DNA of 64,000 bases, taken from assembly GCF_003334385.1 (NCBI RefSeq), contig NZ_QOWN01000010.1. The stretch is one strand, 5' to 3'. The position numbers and the translations under genes were made by a program. Under the pieces are notes generated by a model. It worked only from the letters and a program-made list of their open reading frames with translations. It was not told the DNA's origin and made no database searches. How positions within the stretch are numbered: the stretch's first letter is position 1; each line of letters begins with the position of its first letter. Positions 1-51,864 of the stretch are shown piece by piece. Source of the DNA: Escherichia coli. Lineage in GTDB: Bacteria > Pseudomonadota > Gammaproteobacteria > Enterobacterales > Enterobacteriaceae.

Positions 1-424
1 TAATTAATGCCGCGCGCTGATATTCTGCCCCAGCACTCAGCAGTTGCAGCACCAGAAAATTACCGAAACGATCGATAGTAATACCCGGCAGGCCATCAGA
101 TTCTCCGGCGATTAAACGATAGCTGTCGAGGCCATCTTTTTGCGCCAGCCAGTCACGCCATTTTTGTGCTTGTTGCAAACGGCGGGAAAAAAAAGCAATG
201 TCGATAGACTCAGACGGGTCAAACGTCCAGACGCGCGCCCGGATTTGCGAAGCTGGCGAATAAGCGCCGCGTGCTAACCATTTTCCCTGATGATCAACAA
301 TATCGATGGTTTCACCGAGGCTGGCTTTACCTTCCATGCGGGCAACGGCCCCGGAAAAGACCCACGGATGGCGACGAAGTAATGATTTTTCGCGCCCTTT
401 GGCTAACACTAAACGTACACTCAT
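1..424 (-). CDS. rlmI: 23S rRNA m5C1962 methyltransferase RlmI, N-terminal part only (gene runs off the left edge)
   Basis: Minus-strand ATG at 424..422; translation begins [32 protein letters not shown]; no stop inside window; position upstream of acyP as in E. coli. Confidence 0.75.
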
Positions 425-1873: not shown

Positions 1874-2041
1874 TGAGTCACTCTCTATGACAGATGTAAT
1901 TAATTAAGCAGCATAATGATAATGCGTAAGGGCACCCAGAAGTTTTACCCATCTTTACGCATTTGATCTGGAACAGGTTTAACAGCGGATTATCAGGTCA
2001 TTAAGCAAATATAACGCCCTGAGAATTTCGACAGGCAAAAG

Positions 2042-2069
2042 AAAAAGGGGTTAGCATTTAGCTAACCCC
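2042..2069 (-). terminator. rho-independent terminator downstream of tRNA-Ser
   Basis: GGGGTTAGC / GCTAACCCC 9-bp stem followed by T-run on minus strand. Confidence 0.7.
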
Positions 2070-2079
2070 TTATCTTATT

Positions 2080-2167
2080 TGGCGGAAGCGCAGAGATTCG
2101 AACTCTGGAACCCTTTCGGGTCGCCGGTTTTCAAGACCGGTGCCTTCAACCGCTCGGCCACACTTCC
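2080..2167 (-). tRNA. serT: tRNA-Ser, anticodon UGA
   Basis: Reverse complement reads GGAAGTGTGGCCGAGCGGTTGAAGGCACCGGTCTTGAAAACCGG...TTCGAATCTCTGCGCTTCCGCCA with long variable arm and CCA end. Confidence 0.93.
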
Positions 2168-2593
2168 AGAATGACGCGCACTATAAACATCCCGATGCGG
2201 CGTGTAAACCCCTAATTTGTTTGTTTGCCTGAAAAACAGCCAAAAGTGCATTGATAGCGTGAAATAACAGCAGATTGATCATTTCATCACCATGAATTCC
2301 TTCTCTTTTACTCGTTTAGCAACCGGCTAAACATCCCCACCGCCCGGCCAAAAGAAAAATAGGTCCATTTTTATCGCTAAAAGATAAATCCACACAGTTT
2401 GTATTGTTTTGTGCAAAAGTTTCACTACGCTTTATTAACAATACTTTCTGGCGACGTGCGCCAGTGCAGAAGGATGAGCTTTCGTTTTCAGCATCTCACG
2501 TGAAGCGATGGTTTGCCTTGCTACAGGGACGTCGCTTGCCGACCATAAGCGCCCGGTGTCCTGCCGGTGTCGCAAGGAGGAGAGACGTGCGAT

Positions 2594-3712
2594 ATGAATA
2601 ACGAGGAAACATTTTACCAGGCCATGCGGCGTCAGGGCGTTACCCGGCGCAGCTTTCTCAAATATTGTAGTCTGGCTGCCACGTCGCTGGGATTAGGCGC
2701 GGGAATGGCACCAAAGATTGCCTGGGCGCTGGAGAACAAACCGCGCATTCCGGTGGTATGGATCCACGGTCTGGAATGCACCTGCTGTACCGAATCTTTT
2801 ATCCGCTCCGCTCACCCACTGGCGAAGGACGTCATCCTTTCCCTGATTTCCCTCGATTACGACGATACTTTGATGGCTGCCGCCGGAACCCAGGCGGAAG
2901 AAGTCTTTGAAGACATCATCACGCAATACAATGGCAAATATATCCTCGCAGTAGAAGGTAATCCGCCGCTGGGCGAGCAGGGGATGTTCTGTATCAGCAG
3001 CGGTCGACCGTTTATTGAGAAACTCAAACGTGCCGCTGCCGGAGCCAGCGCGATTATCGCCTGGGGAACCTGCGCGTCCTGGGGCTGCGTGCAGGCCGCG
3101 CGACCCAATCCGACGCAGGCAACGCCTATCGACAAAGTCATCACCGACAAACCCATTATCAAAGTACCTGGCTGCCCGCCGATCCCGGATGTGATGAGCG
3201 CCATCATTACTTACATGGTGACCTTTGATCGCTTGCCAGATGTCGACAGAATGGGCCGTCCGCTGATGTTCTATGGTCAGCGAATCCACGATAAATGCTA
3301 TCGCCGCGCCCACTTCGACGCCGGAGAGTTCGTCCAGAGTTGGGATGATGACGCTGCCCGCAAAGGTTACTGCCTGTACAAAATGGGCTGCAAAGGGCCT
3401 ACCACCTATAACGCCTGTTCCTCCACACGCTGGAATGATGGCGTTTCTTTCCCAATCCAGTCTGGTCACGGCTGCCTGGGCTGTGCGGAAAATGGTTTCT
3501 GGGATCGCGGTTCGTTCTACAGCCGCGTGGTCGATATTCCGCAAATGGGTACTCATTCCACCGCCGATACCGTCGGTTTAACCGCGCTTGGCGTGGTGGC
3601 AGCGGCTGTTGGTGTGCACGCAGTCGCCAGCGCCGTTGACCAGCGCAGACGTCATAACCAGCAACCTACAGAAACCGAACATCAGCCAGGCAATGAGGAT
3701 AAACAGGCATGA
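2594..3712 (+). CDS. hyaA: hydrogenase-1 small subunit (NiFe), Tat signal peptide
   Basis: ORF 2567..3712; start at [23 protein letters not shown] (twin-arginine motif); Cys clusters for FeS. Confidence 0.95.
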
Positions 3713-48982: not shown

Positions 48983-50491
<1,509 letters not shown>

Positions 50492-50790
50492 GGGACTTAG
50501 CCTGCGGCGGTTTTGTTTGGCTTCAGCAGCGGGTTGCGCTCCCTTAATGTGCCTCGCCATATAAATTGAATGGTGCAGGGAGCGCGCAGGGGGCGGCCAA
50601 TCGCCGCCGCCCCCTGCTGTCCCGGCCTTCGGGGAACGCTTCAGCGATTTTGACGCCACCAACACCCGAGCTGTTATTATGTTCCGGGCAAAAAGTTAGA
50701 TTTGATAATCGCGGATGGACGAAATTGCTTGATACACCCGCTTATCAGTTTTACATGGAAGCTCTGATGCATTGAGTCTGGACAGTTTTG

Positions 50791-50826
50791 TCGGCTGGAT
50801 ACGGCGTTTACGCGGCATCCGGCAAG
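50791..50826. repeat. REP element
   Basis: GTCGGCTGGATACGGCGTTTACGCGGCATCCGGCAAG. Confidence 0.65.
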
Positions 50827-50957
50827 AACACATGGTTCTTTGCAAACAATCCCATCTTTCTACCCTGGAATAATCGTTTATATCCCTTGGCATTACCTCT
50901 CTTTGTTTACATTCCAACATCATTTTATAAACATTCCGCTTGTGTTTTTCTTTGCCG

Positions 50958-51033: not shown

Positions 51034-51864
51034 ATGTTTGTTCCGTTTCTCATTATGTTGCGCGAAGGACTTGAAGCCGCGCTGATTGTCAGTTTGATTG
51101 CCAGCTATCTTAAGCGTACCCAGCGAGGCCGATGGATTGGTGTGATGTGGATTGGCGTGTTGCTTGCCGCTGCGTTGTGCCTGGGCTTGGGTATCTTCAT
51201 TAACGAAACCACCGGCGAATTTCCGCAAAAAGAACAGGAACTGTTTGAAGGTATCGTGGCGGTGATCGCCGTGGTGATCCTTACCTGGATGGTTTTCTGG
51301 ATGCGCAAAGTGTCGCGCAACGTCAAAGTGCAACTGGAACAGGCAGTCGATAGCGCATTGCAGCGTGGAAATCATCATGGCTGGGCGCTGGTGATGATGG
51401 TCTTTTTTGCCGTTGCAAGGGAAGGGCTGGAGTCGGTCTTTTTCCTGCTGGCGGCATTTCAACAAGATGTCGGGATCTGGCCGCCGCTGGGTGCAATGCT
51501 CGGTCTTGCTACTGCCGTGGTGCTAGGCTTCCTGCTCTACTGGGGCGGTATTCGCCTCAATCTTGGTGCATTTTTTAAATGGACCAGCCTGTTTATTCTC
51601 TTCGTCGCCGCAGGGCTGGCAGCTGGTGCCATTCGCGCATTTCATGAAGCCGGATTGTGGAACCACTTTCAGGAAATCGCCTTCGATATGAGTGCGGTGC
51701 TCTCAACTCACTCGCTGTTTGGCACGCTGATGGAAGGGATTTTTGGCTATCAGGAAGCGCCGAGCGTCAGCGAAGTCGCCGTCTGGTTTATTTATCTCAT
51801 CCCGGCGCTGGTGGCATTTGCTCTGCCACCACGCGCAGGGGCGACAGCGTCTCGCTCCGCGTAA
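51034..51864 (+). CDS. efeU: ferrous iron permease EfeU (Ftr1 family), intact frame
   Basis: ORF 51025..51864 uninterrupted; start at MFVPFLIMLREGLEAALIV; two REGLE motifs. Confidence 0.9.
   Translation: MFVPFLIMLREGLEAALIVSLIASYLKRTQRGRWIGVMWIGVLLAAALCLGLGIFINETTGEFPQKEQELFEGIVAVIAVVILTWMVFWMRKVSRNVKVQLEQAVDSALQRGNHHGWALVMMVFFAVAREGLESVFFLLAAFQQDVGIWPPLGAMLGLATAVVLGFLLYWGGIRLNLGAFFKWTSLFILFVAAGLAAGAIRAFHEAGLWNHFQEIAFDMSAVLSTHSLFGTLMEGIFGYQEAPSVSEVAVWFIYLIPALVAFALPPRAGATASRSA

What the first reader, a model, noticed from the sequence alone, without database searches (positions are those of the whole stretch)
50587..50616. GC-rich palindrome in the putP-efeU spacer that is not REP-like
CAGGGGGCGGC-CAATC-GCCGCCGCCCCCTG forms a long G/C stem about 95 bp downstream of putP. 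It does not resemble the REP consensus seen elsewhere in the window and is not followed by a T-run on the putP strand. It could be a stability or insulator hairpin, a protein binding site or an unannotated structured RNA element; the overlapping 69-codon ORF (50566..50775) looks spurious.
Basis: seen in the sequence. Interest (0 to 1): 0.3.

Follow-up and report, generated by a model that had tools for sequence, protein, structure and literature searches.

The report
Hairpin of the known TRIP1b repeat
The GC-rich palindrome is real, but it is the central hairpin of TRIP1b, a known, internally deleted copy of the E. coli TRIP1/RRS repeat family, whose full-length copies trigger single-strand gaps when the chromosome is replicated.

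Summary
The palindrome is confirmed. It is a perfect 12-bp G/C stem with an 8-nt loop at 50586..50617, unique in the window, and neither REP-like nor a terminator.

It is not an orphan. It lies inside TRIP1b (window 50533..50678), described by Rudd in 1999 and by Li et al. in 2024. TRIP1b is 146 bp long, starts 41 bp after the putP stop, ends 355 bp before efeU, and lacks about 125 bp internally.

The full-length paralogs TRIP1a (aqpZ-lysO) and TRIP1c (dusC-yohP) are the "replication risk sequences" (RRS), which cause post-replication gaps.

My additions:
- The hairpin is one conserved helix of a roughly 270-nt fold found across Enterobacteriaceae. In 134 copies, 10 of its 12 pairs show compensatory changes.
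- Wobble pairs favour the G-rich strand, which is the window minus strand.
- The window copy equals a full-length allele at the same locus minus a clean 126-bp deletion.
- That deletion removes the first G-run of the published G4 motif.
- The copy's G strand sits on the leading-strand template.

TRIP1b is therefore most likely an inactive relic. Side leads: the full-length fold resembles Rfam's TwoAYGGAY motif below threshold, and both kinds of element form head-to-head dimers.

Verdict: already known, low to moderate interest.

The parts
50533..50678 (-). TRIP1b, the internally deleted TRIP1/RRS-family repeat. The G-rich (folding) strand is the window minus strand.
   Evidence: The boundaries match Li et al. 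2024: 41 bp after the putP stop, 355 bp before efeU, 146 bp long. I derived the same boundaries independently by comparing paralogs.
50586..50617 (.). P2 hairpin, the finding itself: 12-bp perfect G/C stem (50586..50597 with 50606..50617) and loop CAATCGCC.
   Evidence: Folds. In 134 family copies the homologous helix has 10 of 12 pairs with changes on both sides and 95.8% of cells paired.
50536..50585 (.). P1 stem-loop: GCGCTCCCT (50536..50544) pairs with AGGGAGCGC (50577..50585) around a 32-nt A/T-rich loop. It abuts P2 directly.
   Evidence: Fold. The dusC-yohP copy has the compensatory form GCGCTCCTT/AAGGAGCGC. In the family, 5 of 7 pairs change on both sides and 98.7% of cells are paired.
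50615..50617 (.). Junction of the 126-bp internal deletion (position ambiguous by 1-2 nt).
   Evidence: The window matches the full-length putP-efeU allele L003 at 209 of 209 aligned bases, apart from one clean gap.
50618..50678 (-). Orphan remnant of domain II. On the G strand it holds the 5' half of the long closing stem (GGTGGCGTCAAAATCGCTG...), whose partner was deleted.
   Evidence: Alignment to the full-length copies. In full-length elements this segment pairs with CGGCGATTTTGTTCGCC.

Best explanation
The palindrome is helix P2 of TRIP1b (window 50533..50678), the third, internally deleted copy of the enterobacterial TRIP1 repeat.

Full-length TRIP1 elements are about 265-275 bp. On their G-rich strand they fold into a conserved multi-helix structure: a large branched domain II, then hairpin P2, then stem-loop P1. 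In E. coli K-12, TRIP1a and TRIP1c carry the G strand on the lagging-strand template. There they act as replication risk sequences: the unwound strand folds at exactly this P2 region, which the authors call the G4 site. Lagging-strand synthesis is blocked and a RecA/SSB-coated gap is left behind.

The window copy keeps only P2, P1 and an orphan half-stem. A 126-bp deletion removed domain II and the first G-run of the published G4 motif. Its G strand lies on the leading-strand template.

Shown: the identity, the anatomy, the conservation of the helix, the deletion and the orientation.

Inferred: TRIP1b is a decaying relic with little or no RRS activity. Its hairpins can still extrude in single-stranded DNA or form in read-through putP RNA, but have no dedicated function.
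For: - Identity: the position and size equal the published TRIP1b.
- Paralogs were found independently at dusC-yohP, alx-sstT and lysO.
- A covariance model of the P2+P1 module scores the window minus strand at 79.2 bits (E 2e-18) and the plus strand at only 10 bits.
- Helix P2 is kept by covariation: 10 of 12 pairs change on both sides and 95.8% of cells are paired. Slid controls give 36-50%. The covariation score for the whole P2+P1 structure is 0.509 against 0.168 in shuffles, with 0 of 500 shuffles reaching it.
- In the full element, 33 of 51 predicted pairs are compensated.
- Folding strand: G-T wobbles outnumber A-C 85 to 12 on the G strand.
- Deletion: the window is 209/209 identical to the long allele L003 apart from a 126-bp gap.
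- The exact G4 motif is absent from the window but present in TRIP1a, TRIP1c and TRIP1d.
- Orientation: the motif is on the + strand at 0.911 Mb and on the - strand at 2.223 Mb in a K-12 derivative. TRIP1b's G strand is on the - strand at 1.077 Mb. The window's + strand has a GC skew of +0.016.
- Family function. Only two prominent RecA/SSB peaks are reported genome-wide, at lysO and dusC.
- Decay at this locus: one allele has lost 11 nt of P1 (L004), and many lineages lack the element altogether.
Against: - Inactivity is inferred, not measured. I saw no ssGap-seq signal for the putP locus itself.
- The 2026 preprint reports that the complementary (C) strand of a full-length RRS on the lagging-strand template still blocks about 66% of encounters in vitro. 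TRIP1b has that orientation.
- G-runs that could form a two-tetrad G4 remain (GGGACAGCAGGGGGCGGCGG).
- TRIP1b is at least 99% identical in more than 2300 genomes. Recent common ancestry explains this but does not prove neutrality.
- The covariance-model alignment is fitted to the structure, and the seed contained L003, which is identical to the window in this part.
Confidence: 0.8

Rival explanations
1. TRIP1b keeps weak RRS-like activity. With its C-rich strand on the lagging-strand template, the adjacent P1 and P2 hairpins fold when unwound and occasionally stall lagging-strand synthesis, leaving gaps.
For: - P1+P2 fold stably as DNA on the + strand (-36.6 kcal/mol for 146 nt, z -3.4; P2 alone -16.9 kcal/mol).
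- The RRS-C strand blocks Pol II in vitro.
- RRS-C blocks about 66% of replisome encounters in the single-molecule assay.
Against: - Inverted full-length RRS gave no ssDNA gaps in vivo.
- Only two prominent peaks were reported genome-wide.
- TRIP1b lacks half of the structure.
Confidence: 0.12
2. The hairpin acts at the RNA level. Either it is a 3'-end stabiliser or pause/insulator hairpin of putP read-through transcripts (C strand), or it is part of an independently transcribed G-strand non-coding RNA.
For: - The RNA hairpin is very stable (-28.9 and -30.2 kcal/mol).
- The family shows RNA-like covariation with G-U wobbles on one strand.
- Li et al. propose non-coding RNAs.
- Domain II of full-length copies resembles the TwoAYGGAY RNA motif.
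Against: - No promoter-like or terminator-like site was found.
- A terminator-like hairpin plus U-run already overlaps the putP stop, upstream of TRIP1b.
- The orientation of TRIP1 copies relative to flanking genes is inconsistent: read-through gives the C strand at a and b, and the G strand at c and d.
- G-T wobbles are also tolerated in folded DNA.
- TRIP1b has lost domain II.
Confidence: 0.07
3. It is a chance palindrome, or a REP/BIME variant, with no relation to other loci.
For: None beyond G/C richness.
Against: - 0 of 100 shuffles reproduce it.
- Paralogs carry compensatory changes.
- There is no REP-model hit at this site.
Confidence: 0.01

Closest known systems
TRIP1 repeats (Rudd 1999; Li et al. 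2024, PMC10888264), specifically TRIP1b
   Same: Same locus, same boundaries (41 bp after putP, 355 bp before efeU/ycdN), same 146-bp length and the same internal deletion of about 125 bp. It is this element.
   Different: Nothing differs for the window copy. I add three things: an undeleted allele exists at the same locus (L003); the helices are supported by covariation across genera; and the folding strand is the G strand.
RRS, replication risk sequences (Pham et al. 2023 PMC10287960; 2024 PMC11194060; Kusi-Appauh et al. 2026 preprint PMC13308219)
   Same: Same sequence family. RRS-lysO is TRIP1a and RRS-dusC is TRIP1c. The finding's hairpin is homologous to the segment where polymerases stall (the 'G4 site').
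   Different: - The window copy lacks 126 bp.
- It lacks the exact motif GGGGGTGCAGGGGGCGGCGG.
- Its G strand is on the leading-strand template.
- It lies about 0.5 Mb from the RRS midpoint (taken as dif) rather than 0.65 Mb.
- It is not one of the two reported RecA/SSB peaks.
TwoAYGGAY RNA motif (Rfam RF01731; Weinberg et al. 2010)
   Same: - Domain II of full-length TRIP1 has a long closing stem enclosing two adjacent hairpins with CAUGGAUG and ACAKGGAYG loops.
- It scores 26.6-30.2 bits on the G strand.
- My TRIP1 domain-II model hits genuine TwoAYGGAY copies at the right place and strand.
- Both kinds of element form head-to-head (-,+) dimers.
   Different: - The scores are below Rfam's gathering score of 43.
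- The one TwoAYGGAY element I folded with its 3' flank (L191) shows no P2/P1 module after it.
- The window copy has lost domain II entirely, so the resemblance does not concern the palindrome itself.
REP/BIME elements
   Same: G/C-rich extragenic palindromes in intergenic spacers. One lies in the same spacer, at 50793..50829.
   Different: Different consensus, much shorter stem, hundreds of copies. No REP-model match at 50586..50617.
Intrinsic (Rho-independent) terminator
   Same: G/C-rich stem-loop downstream of a gene.
   Different: No U-run on either strand, and the hairpin sits 95 nt past the stop codon. Strains without TRIP1b have a canonical terminator right after putP instead (L009).

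Membership tests
TRIP1b (TRIP1 repeat family) | [quoted passage not shown] | tested here: met
   The putP stop ends at 50491 and the efeU ATG is at 51034. The paralog-defined boundaries 50533..50678 give exactly 41, 146 and 355.
TRIP1b (TRIP1 repeat family) | Sequence homology to TRIP1a/c with an internal deletion of about 125 bp. | tested here: met
   Alignment to K-12 TRIP1a, TRIP1c and the long putP allele shows one 126-bp gap. The covariance model of the P2+P1 module scores 79.2 bits.
RRS (functional replication risk sequence) | Complete 222-bp GC-rich repeat. | tested here: not met
   Only 146 bp remain; domain II is deleted.
RRS (functional replication risk sequence) | G4-forming motif GGGGGTGCAGGGGGCGGCGG. 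| tested here: not met
   The motif is absent from the window and present in TRIP1a, TRIP1c and TRIP1d. The authors also found no third genomic site.
RRS (functional replication risk sequence) | G strand on the lagging-strand template. | tested here: not met
   The G strand is on the minus strand at 1.077 Mb, in the right replichore. The window + strand has a GC skew of +0.016. The replichore assignment rests on K-12 synteny.
RRS (functional replication risk sequence) | Triggers RecA/SSB-bound post-replication gaps. | not testable with these tools
   The literature reports only two prominent peaks, at lysO and dusC. I did not inspect data for the putP locus.
TwoAYGGAY (Rfam RF01731) | Score at or above Rfam's gathering threshold of 43 bits. 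| tested here: not met
   Full-length TRIP1 copies score 26.6-30.2 bits, and none passed in the gathering scan. The window copy gives no hit.
TwoAYGGAY (Rfam RF01731) | Two adjacent hairpins with AYGGAY terminal loops inside a long closing stem. | tested here: not met
   Present in full-length family members but deleted from the window copy.
REP/BIME | Match to the REP consensus or model. | tested here: not met
   The REP-like (naRNA4) hit is at 50793..50829 only.
Intrinsic terminator | G/C stem-loop followed by a U/T run. | tested here: not met
   The scan reports no terminator-like site at the hairpin, and the sequence shows no T-run on either strand.

The most novel reading that the evidence does not exclude
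TRIP1/RRS elements are not defined by a G-quadruplex. They are defined by a strand-specific multi-helix fold of the G strand that evolution has maintained.

- The helix at the published 'G4 site' (the finding's hairpin, P2) is kept by compensatory changes in 134 copies.
- The exact G4 motif occurs in only 20 of 110 copies.
- This fold is a relative of the TwoAYGGAY motif of gut Clostridia. Like that motif, it occurs as head-to-head dimers.

If so, RRS activity depends on the hairpin or whole fold, or on an RNA. TwoAYGGAY 'RNAs' might then be DNA-level programmed gap triggers, or RRS might be non-coding RNA genes.
Probability: 0.3. Interest if true: 0.65.

Novelty: already known. Interest (0 to 1): 0.3.

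Why it matters
For the window, the result turns an unexplained palindrome into an annotated feature. It is TRIP1b, a truncated member of the family that includes the two E. coli replication risk sequences. RefSeq annotation shows nothing there.

For the family, three by-products could sharpen the RRS model:
- Covariation supports the P2 hairpin and the whole G-strand fold.
- The exact G4 motif is rare outside Escherichia-type copies.
- The family resembles TwoAYGGAY and shares its dimer arrangement.

Together these could help decide whether a hairpin or fold, rather than a G4, is the block to the polymerase. They also suggest that similar elements exist well beyond enterobacteria.

Tried and rejected
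- **Rfam on the spacer and on full-length copies.** No family reached its gathering score. Only sub-threshold TwoAYGGAY hits and spurious miRNA hits appeared.
- **Promoter and terminator scan.** Nothing at the hairpin.
- **Phage collection.** No match. 'Plasmid' hits were mostly mislabelled chromosomes.
- **Orientation versus replication across the family, using flanking GC skew.** 39 positive against 44 negative, so no bias. The proxy is noisy, and many loci are dimers.
- **Counting long versus short putP alleles with a junction-spanning BLAST query.** Not discriminating, because paralogs align across it. A rough estimate comes only from the spread rows: about 5 of 30 rows are long and about 14 of 30 are short.
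- **Looking for a target-site duplication at the empty alx-sstT site.** K-12 carries a different, Box C-like segment there, so there is no clean empty site.
- **Mobile-element (MITE) reading.** No terminal inverted repeats within a single unit and no duplication were seen, so I did not pursue it further.
- **Protein-coding reading of ORF 50566..50775 and of the minus-strand ORF 50471..50665.** Rejected: neither is annotated, and both straddle the repeat boundaries.

Full report
**Observation**

One extra G-C pair makes it a perfect 12-bp stem (50586..50597 with 50606..50617) and an 8-nt loop.
- It is unique in the 64-kb window even with three mismatches allowed, and no shuffle reproduces it.
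- The hairpin alone is worth about -29 to -30 kcal/mol as RNA and -17 kcal/mol as DNA on either strand, with z near -5 to -6.
- It begins 95-96 nt after the putP stop codon, has no T-run on either strand and is not flagged as a terminator.
- Rfam places the REP of this spacer at 50793..50829, not here.
- RefSeq annotates no gene between putP and efeU in a genome with an identical spacer.

**What it is**

A BLAST of the spacer against 5,426 complete E. coli genomes showed that part of it recurs elsewhere in each genome, with a median of three places.
- The second place is the dusC-yohP spacer. There the stem reads cagggggAggA...TccTccccctg, which is two double compensatory changes. An upstream stem, GCGCTCCCT/AGGGAGCGC, becomes GCGCTCCTT/AAGGAGCGC.
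- Further copies lie at alx-sstT and next to lysO.
- Literature search then identified the family as the TRIP1 repeats of Rudd (1999), re-surveyed by Li et al. (2024).
- These numbers fit window 50533..50678 exactly.
- The two full-length K-12 copies, TRIP1a (aqpZ-lysO) and TRIP1c (dusC), are the 222-bp replication risk sequences (RRS) of Pham, Cox, Goodman and colleagues.

**Anatomy**

The window copy is identical (209/209 aligned bases) to a full-length allele at the same putP-efeU locus (strain 2014C-3011, L003), except for one clean 126-bp gap just after the hairpin. On the G-rich strand (window minus strand) a full element reads 5' to 3':
- a large branched domain II closed by GGCGUCAAAAUCGCC/GGCGAUUUUGUUCGCC;
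- the P2 hairpin, which is the finding;
- the P1 stem-loop.

The deletion removed most of domain II. It left P2, P1 and an orphan half of the closing stem (50618..50678).

**Family and conservation**

A pattern scan of one genome per species found the element in Citrobacter, Enterobacter, Klebsiella, Silvania, Pseudescherichia, Atlantibacter and other Enterobacteriaceae. One Klebsiella chromosome has 13 places.
- In 54 diverse copies, RNAalifold predicts 51 pairs, of which 33 have compensatory double changes.
- A covariance model of the P2+P1 module (R1) found 134 copies in the loci held.
- On that alignment, P2 has 10 of 12 pairs with changes on both sides and 95.8% of cells paired.
- Slid controls reach only 36-50%.
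- No shuffle reaches the observed covariation score, 0.509 against 0.168.
- Caveats: the alignment is fitted to the model, and the seed included L003, which equals the window in this part.
- Stems differ greatly in sequence. Examples are TGTAAAGGGCG/CGCCCTTTACA, GCCAGGGTGG/CCACCCTGGC and CAAAAGGAGG/CCTCCTTTTG. A hairpin of at least 10 bp is present in 94 of 110 copies.
- The exact RRS G4 motif is present in only 20 of 110 copies, and a three-tetrad G4 pattern in 2-3.
- G-T wobbles outnumber A-C 85 to 12 on the G strand (the same trend appears). The G strand is therefore the one that folds, whether as RNA or as single-stranded DNA.

**How it most likely works**

For full-length RRS the experiments are published.
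- The G strand on the lagging-strand template blocks Pol I, II and IV at this very segment.
- It produces RecA/SSB-coated gaps of up to 2 kb.
- Deleting both elements perturbs genome topology.
- I confirmed the stated orientation in a K-12 derivative: the motif is on the + strand at 0.911 Mb and on the - strand at 2.223 Mb.

TRIP1b differs on each defining point.
- It is truncated.
- The first G5 run of the motif lies in the deleted part.
- Its G strand is on the leading-strand template.
- It lies about 0.5 Mb from the midpoint between the two RRS, not 0.65 Mb.
- Only two prominent RecA/SSB peaks are reported.
- The locus also looks unstable. Another allele has lost 11 nt of P1. B2-type strains lack the element and carry a normal putP terminator. 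O157:H7 has an island plus a diverged remnant.

I therefore read the hairpin as a surviving helix of an inactivated RRS-family element. Identification confidence is about 0.97. The 'relic' inference is about 0.6-0.7.

Residual weak gap triggering by the C strand, or an incidental effect on putP read-through RNA, cannot be excluded. A terminator-like hairpin with a U-run already overlaps the putP stop upstream of TRIP1b.

**Comparison with known families, and leads**
- Rfam's TwoAYGGAY model matches domain II of full-length copies on the G strand at 26.6-30.2 bits. This is below the gathering score of 43, with E about 0.01-0.05 in single-locus searches. None pass the curated threshold.
- Many non-E. 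coli copies have two CAUGGAUG loops.
- I retrieved genuine TwoAYGGAY elements from metagenomes, scoring 87-143 bits.
- My own domain-II model (R2) hit three of them at the Rfam coordinates and on the Rfam strand, at 16-20 bits with E 0.003-0.02.
- Both kinds of element occur as head-to-head dimers: 33 '-,+' pairs and no '+,-' pair among 98 enterobacterial loci, and 16 '-,+' against 0 '+,-' among TwoAYGGAY loci.
- Dimer arms are only about 67% identical but keep every helix through compensatory changes.
- This resemblance concerns domain II, which the window copy has lost. The one TwoAYGGAY element I folded with its 3' flank showed no P2/P1 module.

**Verdict**

The element is already described (TRIP1b), so the finding itself is not novel. 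The interpretation as a possible structured element is right in spirit but missed the repeat family and its replication-related role. Interest is low to moderate. The family-level by-products may deserve separate follow-up: covariation of the 'G4 site' hairpin, the strand asymmetry, the TwoAYGGAY resemblance, the dimers and the undeleted allele.

Noticed in passing
window 50793..50829: A REP element (28-bit partial match to Rfam naRNA4/REP325) sits in the same putP-efeU spacer, 115 nt downstream of TRIP1b.
   Followed up: partly
window 50465..50518: A hairpin, CCGCCG...CCUGCGGCGG followed by UUUUGUUU, overlaps the putP stop codon. It is a possible intrinsic terminator upstream of TRIP1b. Its energy (-21.6 kcal/mol) is not better than shuffles (z -0.24), and the scan missed it because of the long loop.
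   Followed up: partly
L003 1513..1784 (strain 2014C-3011) and L004 (strain YZLc1-3), putP-efeU spacer: Full-length, undeleted TRIP1 alleles exist at the TRIP1b locus. L003 equals the window except for the 126 bp. L004 has lost 11 nt of P1. By the spread rows, about one sixth of complete E. coli genomes may carry a long allele. The text I read from Li et al. does not mention one.
   Followed up: partly
L009 780..1003 and L008 781..900 (putP-efeU spacer in other lineages): The spacer is highly polymorphic. One lineage has no TRIP1b and a canonical putP terminator (gcagagggcaatcagtgattgccctctgc followed by a T-run). O157:H7 has an A/T-rich insertion and only a diverged remnant of the TRIP1 end.
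   Followed up: partly
33 loci, e.g. L012 1422..2045, L057 12563..13304, L023 571..1180: In Citrobacter, Enterobacter, Silvania, Pseudescherichia and others, the elements occur as head-to-head inverted dimers. The order is always '-,+', with the G-strand 5' ends facing an A/T-rich centre (33 pairs against 0 of the opposite order). The arms are about 67% identical with compensatory changes. Each DNA strand of a dimer therefore carries one G-type arm.
   Followed up: partly
metagenome loci L121..L236, e.g. L181 976..1467, L140 215..706: Genuine TwoAYGGAY elements (87-143 bits) also form '-,+' head-to-head dimers: 16 pairs against 0 by a loose regex, and 4 of 20 loci by Rfam. I found no mention of this arrangement in the papers I read.
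   Followed up: partly
L024, L068, L074, L083 (alignment A1 columns 179..255): Some copies carry a nested insertion of about 80 nt in domain II. It contains a further hairpin with a CAGGGAUGGGG-type loop, which looks like another module of the same kind.
   Followed up: no
L007 1500..1676 and 1946..2971: In strain MSB1_8B the lysO-side TRIP1a copy is cut off inside domain II (after ...gaggtaacgt). An IS110-family transposase gene lies about 270 bp further on.
   Followed up: no
L120 6076..6473 versus L005 1450..1800: K-12 has no TRIP1d between alx and sstT. It carries a Box C-like repeat (ggagagggttagggtgagggg...ccctcaccccgaccctctccc) at the same position, so this is a segment replacement rather than a clean insertion.
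   Followed up: partly
about 90 nt upstream of the G-strand 5' stem in many non-E. coli copies (e.g. L083, L033, L057): There is additional conserved sequence outside the published TRIP1 limits: a variable hairpin with a GCRAUGRA loop, an A/T-rich stretch with -10-like hexamers, and an ACAGCGA block. Some copies are preceded by a terminator-like hairpin plus T-run. This could be a promoter or a further structural module.
   Followed up: partly
window 51034..51864: efeU is intact here (276 codons), whereas K-12 genomes with an identical spacer carry the frameshifted pseudogene. The window is therefore not from K-12 itself.
   Followed up: yes
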